DNA from: Escherichia phage CR01
Sequence record: OR061068
Strand: one strand, 5' to 3'
DNA length: 45,236 nt
Numbering within the stretch: the first letter of the stretch is position 1; every line of letters starts with the position of its first letter. Below, piece after piece: positions 1 through 45,236 of the stretch. The notes below the pieces were generated by a model. The model was not told where the DNA came from. It was given only the letters and a program-made list of their open reading frames with translations, and ran no database searches. The translations under genes were made by a program, and so were the position numbers.

Positions 1-50
1 CCGTAAAGTTCTTTGATGGCGCGTACAACGTTTGCAGTAGCTTTGTTCAT
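1..50 (-). CDS. 5' part of a 72-aa early protein gene that wraps across the window ends (continues at 45071..45236); paralog of 32971..33189
   Basis: ATG at 50..48; reverse complement reads MNKATANVVRAIKELYG, matching the N-terminus MNKATASVVSAIKEVYG of the 32971 ORF; 50 nt here plus 166 nt at the right end = 72 codons exactly. Confidence 0.6.
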   Translation of the reverse strand, partial: MNKATANVVRAIKELY

Positions 51-61
51 TTCCAAATTCC

Positions 62-115
62 TTATCTCTCGTTTTGATGTAATGAATAGTACCCTATTAT
101 ATTGGGGTGCGCAAA
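62..115 (-). promoter_or_regulatory. conserved early promoter/operator cassette, copy driving the wrap-around gene
   Basis: Reverse complement TTTGCGCACCCCAATATAATAGGGTACTATTCATTACATCAAAACGAGAGATAAGGAATTT immediately precedes the ATG; contains TATAAT, palindrome AATAG-N4-CTATT and an AAGGA ribosome-binding site; near-identical copies at 9808-9870, 43428-43495 and 32905-32970. Confidence 0.5.
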
Positions 116-386
116 CTATTTATTTACCTATTCCAGTTATTCCACCGAATTGTAAATGTTGGAATAAACTATTCGAATAGTTGACTTTTCACTAAAAATA
201 TGATAAGCTCCACCTGAGCTTGTGAAGTATGAACAAGCGACCGCGGCGCGGGCAGGTAACGGAGCCGGACGTTAAGTCCGAGTGTAGTTACGCTGACGCG
301 TTCGGAAGGGCCATACTCTATTGCTTGTGTAAAAAGTACCGGGTTTACTGAGATTACGCCGTTTCTATGTTTAAATGATAAGGACT

Positions 387-416
387 AGCGCCCCGCTTTA
401 AGGCGGGGCTTTACTT
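387..416 (+). terminator. rho-independent terminator-like hairpin
   Basis: Stem GCCCCGC / GCGGGGC with loop TTTAAG followed by a T-rich tract. Confidence 0.4.
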
Positions 417-1713: not shown

Positions 1714-2762
1714 ATGGCAATTACTACTATCGGCGATATCGTAACTGGCAACATCCCGGTCCTGGCGTCTTACATGACCGAGGACCCGGTAGAAAAACCG
1801 CGTTCTTCCAGTCTGGTATTCTGACCCCGACTCCATACGCTGCCGAGATTGCCCGCGGCTCGTCCAACATCGCTAACATCCCTTTCTGGAAAGCGATTGA
1901 TACTTCTATTGAGCCTAACTACTCGAACGACGTATACCAGGACATCGCAACCCCGCGTAACGTGCAGACCGGCGAGATGATGGCGCGCGTTGCATACCTG
2001 AACGAAGGCTTCGGCCAGGCAGACCTGACTGTAGAACTGACCAGTCAGAATCCGCTGCAATCCGTAGCGTCCCGTCTGGATAACTTCTGGCAGCGCCAGG
2101 CGCAACGCCGTCTGATTGCTACCGCGCTCGGTCTGTACAACGACAACGTAGCCGCTACCGATGAATACCATACGCAGAACGATATGGTTATCGACGTGTC
2201 TGCTTCTCTGGGCTTCGACGCTGGCGCATTCATCGACGCTACCCAGACTATGGGCGATGCGCTGATGGGCAACGGCGGTGAAGTGCTGGGCGCTATCGCG
2301 ATGCACAGCTTCGTTTATGCGCAGGCGCGTAAGCAGCAGCTTATCGACTTCATCAAAGATGCTGACAACGACACCCTGTTCGCCACCTACCAGGGCTACC
2401 GCGTGATTGTTGACGACAGCATGACCGTAGTTGGCTCCGGCTCGAGCCGTAAGTTCATCTCCATCATCTTCGGCAACGGCGCTATCGGTTACGGTGAAGG
2501 TAATCCGTCCAACCCGCTGGAATACGAGCGCGAAGCATCTCGCGGTAACGGCGGCGGCGTTGAAACCCTGTGGACCCGTAAGACCTGGTTGCTGCACCCA
2601 CTGGGCTACAGCTTCACCAGTGCGGTAATCACCGGCAACGGCACCGAGACTGTAGCCCGCTCTGCTTCCTGGCAGGACCTGGCGAACGCCTCCAACTGGA
2701 ACCGTGTTGTTGAACGTAAGCACGTACCTATTGCCTTCCTGGTAACTGGTGTCGGTGCTTAA
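1714..2762 (+). CDS. major capsid protein, interrupted by an apparent frameshift near the N-terminus
   Basis: ATG at 1714 reads MAITTIGDIVTGNIPVLASYMTEDPVEK then hits a stop at 1822; the -1 frame is open from ~1794 to 2762 (track ORF 1962..2762); A5 run at 1793-1797; followed by a terminator. Confidence 0.6.
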
Positions 2763-9480: not shown

Positions 9481-9807
9481 CTATTTACTTTCCGCGCCTA
9501 TCGCCCACCCGGTCATCACCATTTGCAGGCGGGTGGCTGTCAGTAGGCTGTAAAACGCGTCTCCGTTTTTCTCTACCGAACGTATTACAGAGTATGTTAC
9601 GGCTTGCGGAGGCAGGCCCGATTTACCAACCCCTACGGCAGCCTCACACTCGCGAACGGTAGAGTCCTTAAATGCCTTTACAATAGTAGGGTCGGCTTTA
9701 TCGAGCACACCAGAAGTCATAAGAACAGATTCACTAAATACCTGTTCGCACGGGGACCCAAAAGCAGCAAAAGACATAAACCCCAGAGCTAATACTAATT
9801 TACGCAT
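9481..9807 (-). CDS. small secreted/periplasmic protein (108 aa), first gene of the moron operon
   Basis: N-terminal signal peptide MRKLVLALGFMSFAAFG; gene sits immediately downstream of a conserved early promoter cassette. Confidence 0.5.
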   Translation of the reverse strand: MRKLVLALGFMSFAAFGSPCEQVFSESVLMTSGVLDKADPTIVKAFKDSTVRECEAAVGVGKSGLPPQAVTYSVIRSVEKNGDAFYSLLTATRLQMVMTGWAIGAESK

Positions 9808-9870
9808 AATTATTTCCTCAGTAAGTTACAGGTGAATAGTACCCTATTATATTGGGGTGCGCAAGTAGTG
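9808..9870 (-). promoter_or_regulatory. conserved early promoter/operator cassette driving the moron operon
   Basis: Reverse complement CTTGCGCACCCCAATATAATAGGGTACTATTCACC...GAGGAAATAATT-ATG; near-identical to the copies at 62-115 and 43428-43495. Confidence 0.5.
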
Positions 9871-29525: not shown

Positions 29526-29741
29526 ATGCAACCATCTGAACTAGGCATCCGTGTAGAACAGCGCCGTAAAGAACTCGGCATCTCCCAGCGCCGTCTGGCT
29601 GTGCTGACCGGGGTTTCCCAGGGCGCAATTAACCAGCTTGCACTCGGTGTAACTCAGGACGTCCGCCCAGCAACGCTGTTTAAACTGGCGGAAGTGCTGG
29701 AAGTAGACGCCAAGTGGCTGGCGCTAGGTGAAGGGGCTTAA
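29526..29741 (+). CDS. XRE/Cro-like helix-turn-helix transcriptional regulator
   Basis: 71 aa; HTH signature LGISQRRLAVLTGVSQGAINQL; only + strand gene inside the minus-strand replication block. Confidence 0.65.
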   Translation: MQPSELGIRVEQRRKELGISQRRLAVLTGVSQGAINQLALGVTQDVRPATLFKLAEVLEVDAKWLALGEGA

Positions 29742-32302: not shown

Positions 32303-32506
32303 TCATTTTACATTCTCCTTAATCCACGCTTCCACTTTCTCCAGGTCGAAAGTACCCGGCTGCCGGCGGCCCATAATACGGATACAACAATCCGGGAACT
32401 TCCCACTCTTTAACCAGTTATTCAGCGTGCGACGGGTAACCCCAATACGCTCGGCTACTTCATTCTGTGTCATTCTCAAACCCCCATTATCAGTTAACGA
32501 AACCAA
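32303..32506 (-). CDS. AlpA/excisionase-type HTH DNA-binding protein
   Basis: 67 aa; MTQNEVAERIGVTRRTLNNWLKSGKFP; preceded by a TTGATT-N17-TATACT promoter-like sequence. Confidence 0.55.
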   Translation of the reverse strand: MVSLTDNGGLRMTQNEVAERIGVTRRTLNNWLKSGKFPDCCIRIMGRRQPGTFDLEKVEAWIKENVK

Positions 32507-32509
32507 GTA

Positions 32510-32970
32510 TACATTGCGAATAATGGGAAATCAAACATAATCGCACCTATTGACATTAAGAAAATCTTCGTTTAAGGTGCTTCTATATCTTAGTTACTTT
32601 GATTCCTGTTCACCTTGTAAAACCCGCCGAAAACGAGCGCCCAACGCGAAGTGTTAGGCGGCAGTTTACTGAACATTCGAATTATCGTAACTTTCCTTCC
32701 TAAGTATCTCCGGTTGCCCTGGGCAAGCTCTATTCCCATCGGCGGAATATATCTTAAGTATCTGATTTTCTTAAAGTGCCGTAGATTCGCAACCGTAAAA
32801 ATGTAACGATTATTGGGCAGGCTTAGGGCCTGCCCTTTAGTTACCAAGTAATAAGAATAAAGGCACAACCCTACCTGAAGAATCACAACGGCAACGTAAC
32901 TATTCTCTTGCACACCCCAACATAATAGGTTACTATTCACTTATCGAAACGAGACATAAGGAATTTAGCA
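32510..32970. promoter_or_regulatory. 460-bp non-coding control region with divergent promoters and a terminator-like hairpin (candidate origin / ncRNA locus)
   Basis: No convincing ORF; TTGACA at 32552 with -10-like element; hairpin GGGCAGGC-TTAG-GGCCTGCCC plus T-tract at ~32816-32842; conserved cassette at 32905-32970. Confidence 0.45.
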
Positions 32971-33189
32971 ATGAACAAAGCGACTGCAAGCGTAGTTTCC
33001 GCAATCAAAGAAGTTTACGGCATCGATATTTCAGAGCGCGTAATTATCGGGAACAAACGCAGCTTCTTTACGTTCGACACCGACGGAATGGATGAAAATG
33101 ATTTTAACAACGTACAACGTTTCGCCAACGGTAAAGGGCTTCGTAACGAGCCTGCTGGTTACAAGAAATTCGCTATCTACTTTAAATAA
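32971..33189 (+). CDS. 72-aa early protein, paralog of the wrap-around gene
   Basis: MNKATASVVSAIKEVYGIDISERVIIGNKRSFFTFDTDGMDENDFNNVQRFANGKGLRNEPAGYKKFAIYFK; same length and ~80% identical to the wrap-around product; same promoter-leader cassette. Confidence 0.6.
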   Translation: MNKATASVVSAIKEVYGIDISERVIIGNKRSFFTFDTDGMDENDFNNVQRFANGKGLRNEPAGYKKFAIYFK

Positions 33190-34636: not shown

Positions 34637-34771
34637 CAGGTCAATAGTTTACTATTTGACTGAGTGACTTACGCTGCTACACAGCAGCGTACAACTTTAG
34701 ATTAGTGTCGTCAAAAAGCGACACTTTCACCGAACGCAACAATAGAAGCGATTATTGCAGGAGATGCAACA

Positions 34772-35002: not shown

Positions 35003-35071
35003 AATTTACTTGCACACTGAGATAGAATAGACTACTATTCATTTACACAAACGAGAGGAGAGAGAGAGAAT

Positions 35072-39840: not shown

Positions 39841-40386
39841 ATGAAGCTGAAACTTAAGCAGCCATCGCCAGAGGTGGTGCAAGCGGCACATGAAGAAGCT
39901 GTTAGCGCAAACCGTCGTCGTAAACGACCGCGCGGCAAACAGAGCCTTTACCAGTCATCCCGTAATTCCGCCGCGTTGTGGGACCCGGACTATTGCGACG
40001 CGTTAATCGAGTTCTTCGACCGAAACTCATGGGAACTTGTGCCTACGTCTAAGGGTGACGAACGCCCGCTGATTCAGGATAAACCGCCGTCACTGGCCCG
40101 CTTCGCCTTGCACATCGGCGTCACTATCCCGATTATTAAGCTGTGGCTGCGTGAGATTCCCGCATTTGCCGAAGCCTATGAAACAGCGCAGGCACTTGAA
40201 GAGGCATACTTCACCGAGACAGGGGCCGCCGGTATTTCTGCTACGTTTGCCGCCGCTAAACTGGGTCTCAGCAAAGAGAAACCGGTTGAATCCACCGAAG
40301 AAACAGCACCGACTGAGATTATTTTCAGTGTCGCGGAGCCTGTAGGTAAAATCGTAACAACGAATATGGGCGAGGTAGAGGAATGA
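39841..40386 (+). CDS. terminase small subunit
   Basis: 181 aa ORF immediately upstream of and overlapping the large terminase gene; basic N-terminus. Confidence 0.5.
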   Translation: MKLKLKQPSPEVVQAAHEEAVSANRRRKRPRGKQSLYQSSRNSAALWDPDYCDALIEFFDRNSWELVPTSKGDERPLIQDKPPSLARFALHIGVTIPIIKLWLREIPAFAEAYETAQALEEAYFTETGAAGISATFAAAKLGLSKEKPVESTEETAPTEIIFSVAEPVGKIVTTNMGEVEE

Positions 40387-41631
40387 GTATTCAGCTATCC
40401 GCGCCACAGGCACTGTTCCTGAATTGCGATAACAAGTACAAAGCCTATGTCGGCGGCTTCGGTAGCGGCAAGACATTCGTCGGATGTCTCGACCTGCTTA
40501 CGTTTATGCTCAAGCACCCCGGTACGCGCCTGGGCTACTTCGGCCCGACATACCCGGCCATACGTGACATCTTCTACCCGACATTCGAGGAAGCGGCTAA
40601 CCTGCTTGGCCTTGATGTGCTGGTTAAATCCGGCGACAAAGAAGTCGTTGTAACTCGCGGTAAGACTGTGCTCGGGACCGTTATCTGCCGTTCTATGGAT
40701 AACCCCGGCTCGATAGTCGGCTTCAAAATCGCGGCTGCGGTCGTGGATGAGCTGGACGTATTGAGCCGTGAGAAAGCCGAGCTGGCGTGGAACAAAATCG
40801 TAGCCCGCATGCGTCTGGTTATCCCGGGGTAATTAACCACATCTCCGTCACCACGACTCCGGAAGGGTTCAAGTTCGTTTACGCCAAGTTCAAGGAGAAC
40901 CCGACGCCGAGTTACTCAATGGTGCAGGCGTCCACTCACGAGAACGCCAGATTCCTGCCGCCGGATTACATTAGCTCGCTGACTGAGACTTACCCGGCGC
41001 AACTGATTAACGCGTATCTGAACGGTGAGTTTGTCAACCTGACATCCGGAAGCGTGTATTACGCATACGACCGACGCAAGCACCGCAGCAAAGAGACAAT
41101 TCAACCGGGCGACACGCTGTACATCGGGCAGGACTTCAACGTTACGAAGAACGCCAGCGCCGTGTATGTGCAGCGTAAAGATGGATGGCACGCGGTTGCA
41201 GAACTGAAGGGCCTGTTCGATACGCCGGACACCGTGCGCGTAATTACCGAGAAGTGGAAGTCACAAGGCCACCGCATCGTCGTTTACCCCGACGCTAGCG
41301 GCAAGAACCGTAAGACAAACTCGGCGTCAATCTCTGATATTGCATTACTCCAGCAGGCGGGTTTCGATGTTCGCGCTAAATCAGCCAACCCCCGGTTAAA
41401 GACCGCGTTTTAGCCGTGAACACCGCGCTGGAAAAAGGTAAGCTGTGGGTTAATGACCACTTATGTCCTGAGATAGCCAAGACGCTGGAACAGCAGGCAT
41501 ACGACGATAACGGAGAGCCGGCTAAAGACGGCGTCATTGACCATATGGCTGATGCTCTCGGCTATCCTGTAGTTTATGAGATGCCGGTGGTTAAACCAGT
41601 AATCAACATCCCGGTGACTTTCGCACTTTAA
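40383..41631 (+). CDS. terminase large subunit, split by two homopolymer frameshifts
   Basis: Walker A VGGFGSGKTF and Walker B AAVVDELD; three successive frames (40383..40832, 40787..41413, 41416..41631) join when one base is added at G-run ~40826-40829 and C-run ~41388-41392. Confidence 0.75.
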
Positions 41632-41643
41632 GAGGATTATTAA

Positions 41644-43112
41644 ATGTTAACTATGAACGGTCAGAATCAGGGTGTTAAGACAAAACACCGGGAATGGCTG
41701 CATCACTTCGATAAATGGCAGAAGGTGCGCCACGCACTGGAGGGCGACCTTATCCGCTATCTGCGCAACGTCGGGAAGAACGAGCCGGACCCGACCTACG
41801 CGGCACAGCGCCAGGAAGAATACGAGAACGGGGCTATCTGCTATAACTTCACCAAGCGCACCCTGGCGGGGATGGTTGGGTCGGTGATGCGCAAAGACCC
41901 CGAACAGATTATTCCGCCTGAGCTTGAGTACCTGTTACGTAACGCCGACGGTTCTGGTGTCGGGCTGTGGCAGCACGCGCAGGATACTTTGATGGAGATT
42001 GACTCGGTGGGCCGTGGCGGGTTGCTGGTGGACGCCCCGGAGACAGCCGCGGCAACGGCGGCAGAACAGAACGCGGGGCTATTAAACCCGGTCATTGCAT
42101 TCTATACCGCAGAGAACATCATAAACTGGCGACTGACCCGCGTTGGTTCAGTTAACCGTGTGACGATGGTCGTGCTGCGTGAGGTGTGGGAATACTCGGA
42201 ACCGGGCGCAGAGTTCGAAACAAAGTTCGGTGAGCAATACCGCGTTCTCGATTTGATTGATGGTCGCTACCGCCAGCGCATTTACCGCTTCGATGCCGAA
42301 GGTGGTGCGCAGGGTGAAGTAATCGAAATATTCCCTGAACTTGGTGAACAGTTGCGCGGCAAAATCCCGTTCACGTTCATTGGGGCGAGCAACAACGACG
42401 CCACTATAGACGATGCACCTTTGCTGCCGTTGGCTGAGCTCAATATCGGACATTTCCGCAACAGCGCGGACAATGAGGAGTCCAGCTTCGTTGTAGGGCA
42501 GCCCACCCTGTTCATTGCCCCAGGTGAGAACATGAGCATGGAACAGTGGAAAGAGGCCAACCCTCACGGCGTCCGCACGGGGTCGCGTTCAGGCCACAAC
42601 ATTGGTTACGGCGGCAATGCGTTTCTGGTTCAGGCAGGGAGAACAACCTCGCCAAACAGAACATGCTGGATAAAGAGAATCAGGCGATTCAGATTGGTGC
42701 GCAGCTTATCACCCCGACGCAGCAAATCACCGCTGAATCGGCCCGTCTGCAACGTGGTGCTGATACTTCAGTTATGGCAACAATCGCACGTAACGTAAGC
42801 ATGGCGTACACTGATGCGCTGCGCTGGGTGGCTGCGATGCTTGGGCTGCGTGAAGGCACAGAGATTGAGTTCAAGCTGAATATGGAGTTCTTCCTGCAAC
42901 CGATGACCGCTCAGGACCGTGCTCAGTGGATGGCGGATATTAACGCGGGTCTGTTACCGGCTACCGCTTATTATGCTGCGTTGCGCAAGGCAGGTGTAAC
43001 TGACTGGACGGACGAGGACATTCAGAACGCTATTGAGGACGCACCTCTGCCGTTGGGTGCTGTTACTCAGGTGGCTGGAGAGATTCCGCAGTCGGCGCAA
43101 CAACAGGAGTAA
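41644..43112 (+). CDS. portal protein, frameshifted at G-run ~42637-42639
   Basis: Track ORFs 41644..42798 and 42546..43112 join with one added G; position between TerL and the head morphogenesis gene. Confidence 0.6.
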
Positions 43113-43145: not shown

Positions 43146-43427
43146 TTATACAAATATGAATCCATTGCTGGAAGAGGTGTATCGGGTGGTGCCGTTTTTC
43201 GTTTCGGGCCAACAGATATATGAGCGACCATGATACTCTACCCACCAAAGTTCTACATCGGCATCCCCATTAGGTCGCGTCAACCACCCGTGGTGCAGCC
43301 AATACTTGCGCCCTATTTTAAATATGCCTTCTTCGCATGAAGGCCTGCAACAGGCGACGCACTCTACTTGAACACCATCAACATGCACACATGTCATATG
43401 TAAATTACTGTTTGAATATTTAGCCAT
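43146..43427 (-). CDS. Cys-rich small protein (93 aa) driven by a conserved early promoter cassette
   Basis: MAKYSNSNLHMTCVHVDGVQVECVACCRPSCEEG...; lone minus-strand gene inside the late region. Confidence 0.5.
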   Translation of the reverse strand: MAKYSNSNLHMTCVHVDGVQVECVACCRPSCEEGIFKIGRKYWLHHGWLTRPNGDADVELWWVEYHGRSYICWPETKNGTTRYTSSSNGFIFV

Positions 43428-43495
43428 TTCTAAATTCCTTATCTCTCGTTTTGATGTAATGAATAGTACCCTATTATATTGGTGTCTGCAAATAT
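43428..43495 (-). promoter_or_regulatory. conserved early promoter/operator cassette
   Basis: Reverse complement TTTGCAGACACCAATATAATAGGGTACTATTCATTACATCAAAACGAGAGATAAGGAATTTAGAA-ATG. Confidence 0.5.
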
Positions 43496-43535
43496 TATTT
43501 TTATGCGTTACACTGTCTATACTACAGGAGGGCTT

Positions 43536-44578
43536 ATGAGCTTACTTACATCCCTAATCAGCCACCAGATATGGCTACAACGCGCCGCATCCGGTGAAGT
43601 GAAAGACCTCGCACCGTTTATTAAGGAGATGCGGGACGAAATCAAACGGCAGGTGCTGTTATTCGGCGACGACGGGCGAAGCACTGCGCGACTGAATAAA
43701 CTGTTACGCGACCTCGAAGAAGCACTGACAGGGCTTACAGGTGACTGGCAAACAAAGCTGACAGAAGACCTTAAGGAACTGGCGGCGTATGAGGCGGAGT
43801 GGAACGTAAAGGCACTGACCGCCAACGTAGACGCGGAGTTTGTTACACCTACCGCCGAACAGGTGTGGGCTGCTGCCGAGTTTCAACCGCTCTCATTGAG
43901 CGACAAGCCTGTTGATTTCTCTAAGCTGATGACCGGCTGGGGCGAAACAGAAGTCGAGCGCCTGGTAACCGGCGTTAAGATGGGCTTTGTACAAGGCCAA
44001 ACCACACGGCAGATTGTTAAGAATGTCGTAGGCGCTGGCGGACTGGCCGACGTCTCTGAGCGTAACGCCGCTACCGTCATCCGCACCGCGCTGTCCCACG
44101 TGTCTAACGAAGCCCGTAACGAGACGTACCGCCAGAACGAAGACATCATCGAGAAGTACGAGTGGGTGTCGACGCTAGACAGCCGTACCAGTACGATTTG
44201 CAGAGCCAGAGACGGAATGACGTGGGAAATCGGTAAAGGGCCAATGCCCCCGCCCATCCGAACTGCCGGTCGTGCACGGCTCCGGTAATCAGTTCAGAGT
44301 TCGATTTCCTGGATAAAGGTGCAAAGCGAGCGGCTAAAGGTGCGGACGGCGGTACTCAGGTAAGCGCAGACACCACCTATTACGAGTTCCTGAAGCAACA
44401 ACCGTCGTGGTTTATCGATGAAGCGCTCGGCCCGGTGCGAGGCAAGATTTTCCGTAACAGCGGTATATCACCGGAAGAGTTTCGCGTAATATCTGTAGAT
44501 GGTTTCGGGAATCCGCTGACGCTTAAGCAGATGGCGGAACTCGATAAACGTGTTGCTGATTATCTGAAAGGGGAATAA
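43536..44578 (+). CDS. head morphogenesis protein (phage Mu F-like), frameshifted at C-run ~44247-44255
   Basis: ATG 43536 with ribosome-binding site AGGAGGG; adding one C gives MPPPHPNCRSC, the PPxHxNCRC signature of Mu F / SPP1 gp7 family proteins, and extends the frame to 44578. Confidence 0.6.
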
Positions 44579-45040: not shown

Positions 45041-45070
45041 AAAAGGCCCCATTACGGGGCCTTAGTTTTA
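45041..45070. terminator. bidirectional rho-independent terminator
   Basis: AAAAGGCCCCATTACGGGGCCTTAGTTTTATTT between convergent genes. Confidence 0.6.
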
Positions 45071-45236
45071 TTTGAAGAATATCGCGAATTTCTTGTAACC
45101 CGCTGGCTCGTTGCGCAGACCGTGTTCGTTAGCAAAACGTTGTACATTGTTAAAGTCATTTTCACCCATTCCGTCCGTATCGAACGTAAAGAAATTACGT
45201 TTGTTCCCGATAAGCACACGGCTTGTGATATCAATG
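45068..45236 (-). CDS. 3' part of the wrap-around 72-aa early protein gene (start at 50..1)
   Basis: Reverse complement reads IDITSRVLIGNKRNFFTFDTDGMGENDFNNVQRFANEHGLRNEPAGYKKFAIFFK-stop, collinear with residues 18-72 of the 32971..33189 product. Confidence 0.6.
   Translation of the reverse strand, partial: IDITSRVLIGNKRNFFTFDTDGMGENDFNNVQRFANEHGLRNEPAGYKKFAIFFK

What the first reader, a model, noticed from the sequence alone, without database searches (positions are those of the whole stretch)
32971..33189. Two divergent paralogs of a 72-aa early protein at distant loci and opposite orientations, with the same promoter cassette
The gene at 32971..33189 (+) and the wrap-around gene (45068..45236 joined to 1..50, minus strand) encode 72-aa proteins about 80% identical (MNKATASVVSAIKEVYG... 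versus MNKATANVVRAIKELYG...). Each is preceded by the same ~60 bp promoter-leader. One copy sits at the head of the early region, the other is a lone minus-strand insert between late genes. Retaining a diverged duplicate under early control suggests dosage need or diversification, as seen for anti-defence or host-specificity factors.
Basis: seen in the sequence. Interest (0 to 1): 0.5.

Follow-up and report, generated by a model that had tools for sequence, protein, structure and literature searches.

The report
Two early Ip9-like phage accessory genes
A Kagunavirus phage genome carries two diverged copies of a small protein related to Ip9, an "internal protein" that T4-like phages inject with their DNA; here it lacks the packaging signal and sits behind copies of the phage's standard early promoter, so it is probably an anti-defence accessory gene of a known kind whose target is unknown.

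Summary
Copy A (32971-33189, +) and the wrap-around copy B (45068-45236 joined to 1-50, -) encode 72-aa proteins. They share 61/72 aa and 179/219 nt with no indels, and their promoter-leaders are 57/67 identical. The window is a complete, circularly permuted Kagunavirus genome, and the junction is genuine.

The protein belongs to PHROG 7673, the "Ip9" family of T4-like phages. All T4-like members carry the N-terminal capsid-targeting sequence (MKTYQEFIxE). The Kagunavirus proteins start where the mature domain begins. "Internal head protein" is therefore probably a misnomer here.

The promoter cassette is not private to the pair. It is a genome-wide σ70-like promoter family of 8-9 copies, each holding the palindrome AATAG-N4-CTATT. 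It heads the early operon, the replication operons and three minus-strand "moron" slots among the late genes.

The copies are not a recent duplication (dS≈1, dN/dS 0.09). They represent locus-specific lineages: A at the early head, B between the Hoc-like and Rz-like genes, and a third type beside the portal gene in another contig. About 30 related genomes or contigs each showed one copy; not every contig reaches the second slot.

Function is inferred only: an immediate-early inhibitor of a host defence, by analogy with Ip1-3 and Ip6.

The parts
32908..32939 (+). Class I σ70-like promoter of copy A and the early (+) operon: TTGCAC, 17 nt, TACTAT, containing the palindrome AATAGGTTACTATT
   Evidence: The same promoter is conserved in relatives whether or not copy A is present. 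It is a sequence-based prediction with no expression data.
32940..32970 (+). Leader and ribosome-binding region of copy A (…CGAAACGAGACATAAGGAATTTAGCA)
   Evidence: In relatives without copy A the leader is shared only up to …GAGACA. The ATAAGGAATTT…ATG part therefore travels with the gene.
32971..33189 (+). Copy A: 72-aa Ip9-like protein without a capsid-targeting sequence (A-type, early-locus lineage)
   Evidence: PHROG 7673, E 3e-27; AF2 pLDDT 94.7. The identical protein is the first gene of the early operon on 6 other contigs.
32815..32835 (+). Terminator-like hairpin just upstream of the copy A promoter
45068..45236 (-). Copy B, 3' part (codons 17 (last two bases)-72 and the stop codon)
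1..50 (-). Copy B, 5' part (codons 1-17 (first base)); B-type, Hoc/Rz-slot lineage
   Evidence: PHROG 7673, E 1e-26.
51..82 (-). Leader and ribosome-binding region of copy B (TTACATCAAAACGAGAGATAAGGAATTTGGAA)
   Evidence: It is nearly identical to the leader of the unrelated 93-aa gene at 43146-43427 (repeat D2, 79 nt, 89%).
83..114 (-). Class I promoter of copy B (exact match to the core pattern)
   Evidence: It is conserved in relatives whose slot holds other cargo.
45043..45063 (.). Bidirectional intrinsic terminator shared by the Hoc-like gene (+) and copy B (-); it makes copy B a monocistronic promoter-ORF-terminator unit
   Evidence: hairpin called on both strands.
43146..43491 (-). Sister cassette: class I promoter (43460-43491), the same leader, and an unrelated 93-aa Cys-rich gene in the portal/Mu-F slot. 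In another phage this slot holds a third Ip9-like lineage.
   Evidence: no PHROG match; L143.
9481..9864 (-). Sister cassette: class I promoter (9833-9864) and a 108-aa gene with a signal-peptide-like N-terminus, lying among the tail genes
   Evidence: PHROG 14165, unknown function.

Best explanation
SHOWN. The window is a whole Kagunavirus (Guernseyvirinae) genome. Both genes encode members of the Ip9 family of T4-like phages (PHROG 7673). They consist of the mature domain only: a compact 8-kDa α-β-β-α-β-β fold without the N-terminal capsid-targeting sequence that every T4-like member carries. Each gene is plugged in directly behind a copy of a repeated σ70-like promoter. This promoter also heads the early operon, the replication operons and two other minus-strand inserts, and it always contains the palindrome AATAG-N4-CTATT. 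Copy A is the first cistron of the early operon. Copy B is a self-contained promoter-leader-ORF-terminator unit (a 'moron') in a cargo slot between the Hoc-like and Rz-like genes, a slot that holds other genes or almost nothing in relatives. The two copies belong to old, locus-specific lineages under strong purifying selection.

INFERRED. The cassette, made of ribosome-binding site plus ORF, moved between slots by recombination through the repeated promoter-leader. This genome acquired both occupied slots by recombination between phages. The proteins are not packaged into the head. They are made from host-RNA-polymerase promoters immediately after DNA entry. They act as small stoichiometric binders that neutralise a host defence acting on incoming or replicating phage DNA. 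The T-even internal proteins Ip1, Ip2, Ip3 and Ip6 do this for GmrSD and McrBC. The two copies differ at 11 positions, five of them charge-changing, and plausibly cover two variants of the target. Because kagunaviruses are highly sensitive to ordinary restriction-modification systems, their DNA is presumably unmodified. The target is then unlikely to be a modification-dependent nuclease.

I rate the family assignment and architecture at about 0.9, non-virion early expression at about 0.7, and the anti-defence function at about 0.4.
For: Family: PHROG 7673 matched at E 3e-27 and 1e-26, covering profile positions 20-90 of 90. tblastn found 170 phage records, 158 of them T4-like at 50-58% identity, with the gene annotated ip9 in the ip locus downstream of 57B. 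T4-like members equal MKT[FY]xEFIxE plus a linker plus the homologous 72 aa. The name Ip9 comes from RB15.

No capsid-targeting sequence: the alignment shows its absence, and no such motif occurs in any frame of the window. No protease family appears among the head genes of relatives.

Fold: AF2 pLDDT 94.7, pTM 0.80.

Promoter family: 4 matches against 0 expected. The palindrome occurs 9 times against 0.03 expected, and none lies upstream of a late structural gene.

Cassette and slot logic: the promoter is conserved with different cargo in Bas70, Golestan, M01 and metagenomic contigs. In XY1 and Bas74 the early promoter drives the next gene directly. Homology to relatives breaks exactly between the promoter and the terminator. 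The terminator is bidirectional.

Lineages: dN/dS 0.09 and dS about 1.0. A-type genes are 96-100% identical to each other, B-type 84-100%, and A versus B 78-82% at nucleotide level, each tied to its own locus. A third type sits in the portal slot.

Single copy elsewhere.

Functional analogy: Ip1-3 each inhibit a distinct GmrSD (PMC12373910). Bas37_0260 inhibits McrBC (10.1101/2025.11.20.689424) and is 60/77 identical to VR25 Ip6, which lies two genes from ip9. Kagunaviruses are highly sensitive to restriction-modification systems (PMC11990801).
Confidence: 0.6

Rival explanations
1. The genes are real, but the two-copy state is an assembly chimera. Two co-occurring kagunaviruses, one with an A-type gene and one with a B-type gene, were merged into one consensus genome.
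For: The window has frameshifts in the portal, major capsid, Mu-F-like and large terminase genes, so it is a low-accuracy sequence. None of about 30 related genomes or contigs showed both copies. Kagunavirus backbones are 90-98% identical, which would allow merging.
Against: Both loci lie in fully native, collinear contexts. The genome length of 45.2 kb is normal for the genus. Natural recombination between such phages would give the same product. There is no duplicated or missing backbone segment at the junction.
Confidence: 0.07
2. The proteins are true internal head proteins of the siphovirus, as the database annotation says, packaged by a mechanism that does not need the T4 capsid-targeting sequence.
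For: They are homologous to T-even Ip9. GenBank and PHROG label the family 'internal head protein' in Bas70 and SHAK7858. Copy B lies among head genes. The predicted pI is mildly basic, 9.0 and 9.5.
Against: The capsid-targeting sequence is missing, and in T4 it is what directs internal proteins into the scaffolding core (PMC3012670). No T4-type core or prohead protease is evident among the head genes of relatives. Copy A is the first gene of the early operon. Copy B is on the opposite strand to the head genes and shares its promoter type with the replication genes, not the structural genes. The label is transferred by homology alone.
Confidence: 0.05
3. The domain is a degenerate R3H-like nucleic-acid or nucleotide-binding module. 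It acts on phage or host DNA or RNA, for example by protecting ends or modulating transcripts, rather than by inhibiting a defence protein.
For: A profile search of PDB sequences gives its best, weak hit to the Smubp-2 R3H domain (E 0.71), with the local match AEEHGLRHDSSG against ANDKGLRHESAG. Foldseek lists the same R3H structure, 2lrr, at E 0.2 and TM about 0.5. R50, R58 and K65 are invariant and K66 nearly so. The Ip7 of OLB35 shares only this C-terminal half.
Confidence: 0.15
4. This is a recent in-genome tandem-to-dispersed duplication kept for dosage.
For: Both copies have the same length and the same promoter type, and both are intact.
Against: dS is about 1.0, the longest identical run is 17 nt, and nucleotide identity is 82% while genus backbones are 90-98% identical. 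Each copy is orthologous to locus-specific genes in other phages.
Confidence: 0.03

Closest known systems
Ip9 of T-even phages (PHROG 7673; first named in phage RB15, UniProt Q38376; annotated ip9 in VR5, VR7, VR20, VR25 and VR26)
   Same: The 72-aa domain is homologous at 50-58% identity over its full length, with the same invariant motif N-x-x-R-F-A-x-x-x-G-L-R-x-E-x-x-G-x-K-K. It is likewise a small non-essential accessory gene in a hypervariable locus.
   Different: The T-even proteins are about 90 aa long. They carry the capsid-targeting sequence MKTYQEFIxE plus a linker and lie in the ip locus after gene 57B. The Kagunavirus proteins lack the targeting sequence, start where the mature domain begins, and sit behind early σ70-like promoters. 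No function has been tested for any member.
T4 internal proteins Ip1 (IPI*), Ip2 and Ip3, and the Ip6-type Bas37_0260: injected inhibitors of type IV restriction (GmrSD variants, McrBC)
   Same: They are small accessory proteins of the same T-even hotspot that act at the very start of infection. Several diverged inhibitors can coexist in one phage, each specific for one enzyme variant. This is the working model for why two copies might coexist here.
   Different: There is no sequence or fold relationship to Ip9; only the targeting sequence is shared among the T-even proteins. Those proteins are delivered pre-made in the capsid and protect glucosyl-hmC DNA. Kagunavirus DNA is restriction-sensitive and presumably unmodified, so a modification-dependent nuclease is an unlikely target.
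Morons: accessory genes with their own promoter and terminator inserted between late genes of lambdoid and other siphophages
   Same: Copy B has the classic anatomy: opposite strand, own promoter, own (bidirectional) terminator, between two structural or lysis genes, with presence/absence and cargo polymorphism among close relatives and lower GC (42.5% against 50.9%).
   Different: This is a virulent phage, so the unit is not a lysogenic-conversion gene. The promoter is not foreign: it is one copy of the phage's own repeated early promoter, which stays in place while the cargo changes.
CTS-less homologue in the Seuratvirus phage SHIN8 (Queuovirinae)
   Same: It is a 74-aa family member without a capsid-targeting sequence in another siphovirus, located in a cluster of small early-type genes.
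   Different: Identity is only 37-40%. It is a single copy, and the promoter context was not analysed.

Membership tests
Ip9 / PHROG 7673 sequence family | Significant full-length sequence similarity to the family profile | tested here: met
   E 3.4e-27 for copy A and 9.7e-27 for copy B, covering profile positions 20-90 of 90. tblastn gives 50-58% identity to T4-like ip9 genes over 72/72 residues. Fourteen columns are invariant in the joint alignment.
T4-type internal (capsid-packaged, injected) proteins | N-terminal capsid-targeting sequence (about MKTYQEFIAE) ending in a prohead-protease cleavage site | tested here: not met
   Both proteins start at the position that follows the targeting sequence and linker in T4-like homologues. 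A regex scan of all six frames of the window finds no such motif.
T4-type internal (capsid-packaged, injected) proteins | The phage has a T4-type scaffolding core and a gp21-like prohead protease to load and process such proteins | tested here: not met
   The head modules of the window and its relatives comprise terminase, a DUF4055 portal, a Mu-F-like protein, a Hoc-like protein, scaffold and major capsid protein. No protease family is recorded. Absence rests on annotation and Pfam, so a novel protease is not formally excluded.
T4-type internal (capsid-packaged, injected) proteins | Physical presence in the virion and ejection with the DNA | not testable with these tools
   This needs virion mass spectrometry or western blotting.
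Moron-type accessory cassette (copy B) | Autonomous promoter and terminator, insertion between late genes, and presence/absence or cargo polymorphism among close relatives | tested here: met
   The promoter lies at 83-114 and the terminator at 45043-45063. The same slot holds a 67-aa gene in Bas70, two other genes in Golestan, and about 130 bp in M01. Promoter activity itself is predicted, not measured.
Early (host-RNA-polymerase) transcription unit | σ70-type promoter and transcription in the first minutes of infection | tested here: inconclusive
   The promoter reads TTGCRC, 17 nt, TACTAT. Its type is shared with the head of the early operon and, through the palindrome, with the replication operons, and it is absent before structural genes. 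In the related phage K1B4 the orthologue vB_Eco_K1B4_009 is called as a gene and the divergent HTH gene 008 is early, but the class of 009 is not given in the text (PMC12645636).
Anti-defence (anti-restriction) protein | Demonstrated inhibition of, or binding to, a host defence system | not testable with these tools
   Only analogy is available (PMC12373910; 10.1101/2025.11.20.689424). There are no matches in Pfam, NCBIfam or PADLOC.
R3H domain (Pfam PF01424) | Conserved Arg-x3-His motif on the first helix and a match to the family model | tested here: not met
   There is no Pfam hit at E ≤ 1. In the weak alignment to Smubp-2 (E 0.71), the Arg and His align to non-conserved residues. Foldseek to 2lrr gives E 0.2. 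This is a lead only.

The most novel reading that the evidence does not exclude
The Ip9 domain is a portable inhibitor module whose delivery route has been swapped during evolution. T-even phages inject it pre-made through the capsid-targeting sequence. Siphoviruses (Kagunavirus, Seuratvirus) make it from the first early promoters. The three locus-specific Kagunavirus lineages (A, B and the portal-slot type) would each neutralise a different variant of one modification-independent E. coli defence that also threatens T-even phages. This genome would then be a natural 'double-armed' recombinant with broadened host range.
Probability: 0.2. Interest if true: 0.6.

Novelty: new variant of a known kind. 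Interest (0 to 1): 0.35.

Why it matters
It corrects an annotation that is spreading through databases: 'internal head protein' for a siphovirus gene that lacks the packaging signal. It shows that one family from the T-even internal-protein hotspot also circulates among unrelated siphoviruses as an early-expressed cassette. If Ip9 is an anti-defence factor, this offers a tractable way to find its target. The 8-kDa protein can be expressed in trans, and the small, easily engineered Kagunavirus genomes allow single and double knock-outs. The CTS-less versions argue that pre-injection is not required for function. The repeated promoter-plus-cargo-slot design may also be useful as a map of where kagunaviruses keep their accessory genes. 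In itself the finding is an ordinary example of phage mosaicism.

Tried and rejected
1. Pfam, NCBIfam and PADLOC scans of both proteins gave no hits.

2. The word-indexed homologue search with copy A found only close Kagunavirus relatives. A second search with VR25 Ip9 was needed to collect T4-like members.

3. An exhaustive profile search of 1.84 billion representatives found only 20 clusters. Two larger proteins embed the domain (P0049, 861 aa, PHROG 3867; P0051, 237 aa), but neither carries an informative partner domain.

5. I tested whether the McrBC inhibitor Bas37_0260 is an Ip9 homologue. It is not; it is an Ip6 homologue.

6. A 17-mer scan of the metagenome collection for further two-copy genomes returned mostly chance hits and one true single-copy Kagunavirus contig.

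7. Rfam and tRNA scans of the whole window found nothing.

8. The generic σ70 scanner did not call the repeated promoter, which scores below its 9-of-12 threshold. The promoter assignment rests on conservation boundaries and repetition.

9. The K1B4 transcriptome paper and its supplements do not give the temporal class of the orthologue.

10. Recent duplication, dosage and mis-join explanations were rejected on the divergence and context evidence.

Full report
OBSERVATION

Copy A is 32971-33189 (+). Copy B is 45068-45236 joined to 1-50 (-). Both encode 72 aa.

The proteins share 61/72 residues (84.7%). The genes share 179/219 nt (81.7%) without indels. The longest identical run is 17 nt.

The promoter-leaders upstream align at 57/67 nt.

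The wrap-around is genuine. A 1200-bp segment across the window ends aligns collinearly at 98.2% with one gap to two independent metagenomic contigs. The joined protein differs from cluster representative P0010 at one residue.

Megablast places the window in Kagunavirus (Guernseyvirinae). The nearest records are M01, AMO_3701M and UTEC10. The window is therefore a complete, circularly permuted 45.2-kb phage genome.

WHAT THE PROTEIN IS

Pfam, NCBIfam and PADLOC give nothing. PHROGs gives family 7673, 'internal head protein', at E about 1e-27. Only profile positions 20-90 of 90 are covered.

tblastn against 50,697 phage records finds 170 records. Of these, 158 are T4-like myoviruses at 50-58% identity. 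Only 12 are Guernseyvirinae.

In T4-like phages the gene is annotated ip9. It lies in the internal-protein locus just downstream of 57A/57B, next to other ip genes and the tRNA cluster. The name goes back to phage RB15.

Every T4-like member examined is about 90 aa. Each consists of MKT[FY]xEFIxE, a linker of about 9 residues, and then the homologous 72 aa.

That N-terminal decapeptide is the capsid-targeting sequence. It loads T4 internal proteins into the scaffolding core (PMC3012670; PMC12373910).

The Kagunavirus proteins begin (MNKAT…) where the T-even domain begins (…[IV]K-I-[NS]-K-A-V…). No CTS-like motif exists in any frame of the window. The head modules of the window and its relatives show no protease family.

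A second siphovirus lineage, Seuratvirus SHIN8, also has a CTS-less member among small early-type genes.

An exhaustive profile search of 1.84 billion cluster representatives finds only 20 clusters. Some carry the targeting sequence and some do not. It is a small, phage-restricted family.

STRUCTURE

AlphaFold2 on a 23-sequence alignment gives a confident model: pLDDT 94.7, pTM 0.80, order α1-β1-β2-α2-β3-β4.

- Foldseek against PDB gives nothing at E ≤ 0.001.
- BFVD gives one uncharacterised 535-aa protein at E 1e-4.

One lead is recurrent but statistically weak: the Smubp-2 R3H domain. A profile search against PDB sequences gives E 0.71, with AEEHGLRHDSSG aligned to ANDKGLRHESAG. Foldseek lists 2lrr at E 0.2. 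The eponymous Arg and His are not conserved, and Pfam R3H is not matched. I record it as a lead, not as membership.

THE PROMOTER CASSETTE IS GENOME-WIDE

The 32-nt core TTGCRCACCCCAAYATAATAGGKTACTATTCA occurs at 83-114(-), 9833-9864(-), 32908-32939(+) and 43460-43491(-), against 0 expected. A diverged copy lies at 35010(+).

It reads as a σ70-like promoter: TTGCRC, 17 nt, TACTAT.

The embedded palindrome AATAG-N4-CTATT occurs nine times in the window, against 0.03 expected.

- Five sites are these class I promoters.
- Three sites lie in a second promoter class (TTGACr, 17 nt, TATAgT) ahead of the minus-strand replication operons: 22540, 26159 and 29438.
- One more site is at 34643.
- None precedes a structural gene.

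The leader and ribosome-binding site ATAAGGAATTTrGmAATG is shared by copy A, copy B, the unrelated 93-aa gene at 43146-43427 (79 nt, 89%) and partly by a replication operon. The 'same promoter cassette' is therefore the phage's standard early or middle promoter with a probable operator. It is not a property of these genes.

SLOTS AND CARGO

In relatives the promoters stay in place and the gene behind them changes.

The Hoc/Rz slot holds:
- an Ip9-like gene in the window, five ENA contigs and Kagunavirus BCH953P1;
- a 67-aa gene in Bas70;
- two other genes in Golestan;
- about 130 bp in M01.

Homology to relatives lacking copy B breaks exactly between the terminator (about 45070) and the promoter edge (about 68-83). 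That terminator, at 45043-45063, is bidirectional. Copy B is therefore a monocistronic promoter-leader-ORF-terminator unit, with classic moron anatomy.

At the early locus, XY1 and Bas74 lack copy A. There the same promoter drives the next gene (MFKKGQL…) directly. Copy A plus its ribosome-binding site is an insertion after …GAGACA.

The portal/Mu-F slot holds the 93-aa Cys-rich gene in the window and in M01. In Logan contig L143 it holds a third Ip9-like gene with the same promoter tail, leader and terminator.

AGE AND ORIGIN OF THE TWO COPIES

Nei-Gojobori analysis gives dN 0.095, dS about 1.02 and dN/dS 0.09. The copies are old and under purifying selection.

Across 20 Kagunavirus genes the sequences fall into locus-specific clades:
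- A-type genes are always behind the early-locus promoter variant and are 96-100% identical in nucleotides.
- B-type genes are always in the Hoc/Rz slot and are 84-100% identical.
- A versus B is 78-82%.

The portal-slot type is equidistant from both, at 61-62/72 aa. All three are much closer to each other than to T-even Ip9 (36-41/72). This fits one acquisition by the Guernseyvirinae lineage followed by spread among the repeated promoter-leader sites.

Both copies have 42.5% GC against 50.9% for the genome, like other early and moron genes.

No other genome or contig examined showed two copies:
- 12 GenBank Guernseyvirinae;
- 7 IMG/VR contigs;
- at least 12 ENA or Logan contigs;
- one further metagenomic genome.

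Not all of these contigs reach the second slot. The window is best seen as a recombinant that combines two usually alternative cargo states.

CAVEAT ON SEQUENCE QUALITY

tblastn with intact orthologues shows frame changes in the portal, major capsid, Mu-F-like and large terminase genes. The sequence is error-prone. A chimeric consensus of two co-occurring phages cannot be ruled out, and I give it about 7%.

LIKELY FUNCTION (INFERRED)

All four T-even internal proteins with known targets inhibit type IV restriction enzymes.

- Ip1, Ip2 and Ip3 each block a distinct GmrSD (PMC12373910).
- Bas37_0260 blocks McrBC (10.1101/2025.11.20.689424).

I fetched Bas37 (MZ501089). Bas37_0260 is an Ip6 homologue, 60/77 identical to VR25 Ip6, and not Ip9. 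In VR25, ip6 lies two genes from ip9. Ip9 itself is untested.

Kagunaviruses are reported as highly sensitive to restriction-modification systems (PMC11990801). Their DNA is therefore presumably unmodified, and a modification-dependent nuclease is an unlikely target in this host-phage pair.

My best reading is an immediate-early, cytoplasmically made small binder that disables a host defence. The two lineages differ at 11 positions, five of which change charge (S10R, E22S, D41G, G54E, K55H). I put this reading at about 0.4.

The rivals are a degenerate R3H-like nucleic-acid binder (0.15) and a true virion protein (0.05).

In the related phage K1B4, the orthologue is a called gene (vB_Eco_K1B4_009) next to an early HTH gene. 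Its temporal class is not stated in the text (PMC12645636).

VERDICT

It is wrong on mechanism: this is not a retained duplicate, and the cassette is not private.

This is a CTS-less variant of a known but uncharacterised phage protein family, placed in the cargo slots of a repeated early promoter. It is ordinary phage mosaicism with one useful twist. Interest is 0.35.

Noticed in passing
window 85, 9835, 22540, 26159, 29438, 32924, 34643, 35026, 43462 (14-nt sites): The palindrome AATAG-N4-CTATT occurs 9 times against 0.03 expected. At least eight sites lie inside one of two σ70-like promoter classes; the ninth (34643) has no clear -35. None lies upstream of a late structural gene. It looks like the operator of a phage regulator that controls the whole early and middle regulon. 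Candidate regulators are the 71-aa HTH_3 protein at 29526-29741(+) and the HTH_17 protein at 32303-32506(-).
   Followed up: partly
window 181-416 (+): A strong promoter (TTGACT, 17 nt, TAAGCT with upstream TG) is followed about 190 nt later by a strong terminator (390-409), directly upstream of the Rz-like, scaffold, capsid and tail genes. It runs divergent from copy B. The transcript is structured (z = -2.2) and has no Rfam match. It could be a small RNA, or a lambda PR'-tR'-like late promoter and attenuator unit needing antitermination. A palindrome CTATTCGAATAG abuts the -35 element.
   Followed up: partly
window 1714-2762, 40380-41628, 41644-43112, 43479-44575: The major capsid, large terminase (two frame changes), portal and Mu-F-like head morphogenesis genes are each split by frameshifts relative to intact orthologues. 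The window sequence contains indel errors, as do its nearest GenBank relatives M01 and AMO_3701M, which show split annotations.
   Followed up: yes
window 43146-43427 (-) and 9481-9807 (-): Two further minus-strand moron cassettes sit behind the same promoter. One is a 93-aa Cys-rich protein with no PHROG match, in the portal/Mu-F slot. The other is a 108-aa protein with a signal-peptide-like N-terminus (PHROG 14165, unknown function) among the tail genes. Both slots carry different cargo in relatives.
   Followed up: partly
L143 1-290 (Logan SRR25448317 contig): A third Ip9-like lineage (P0009, 61-62/72 identical to both A and B) occupies the portal-adjacent slot, with the same promoter tail, leader and terminator. 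The family therefore uses at least three of the promoter slots across the genus.
   Followed up: yes
L006 2866-3099 (phage OLB35 'ip7'): Ip7 of a Mosigvirus shares only the C-terminal 32 residues (about 78-80% identity) with Ip9. Its N-terminal half is different and has no canonical capsid-targeting sequence as annotated. This suggests domain shuffling within the T-even ip locus.
   Followed up: no
L041 7554-7787 (-) (phage Bas37 / KarlGJung, MZ501089) and L005 4582-4815: The recently reported McrBC inhibitor Bas37_0260 is 60/77 identical to the protein annotated Ip6 in VR25. The old Ip6 family therefore now has a function. In VR25 it lies two genes downstream of ip9.
   Followed up: yes
proteins P0049 (861 aa, residues 660-734) and P0051 (237 aa, residues 82-157): The Ip9-like domain also occurs embedded in larger phage proteins. 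One is PHROG 3867, of unknown function. The other carries a T4-type capsid-targeting sequence at its N-terminus. Their context was not examined.
   Followed up: no
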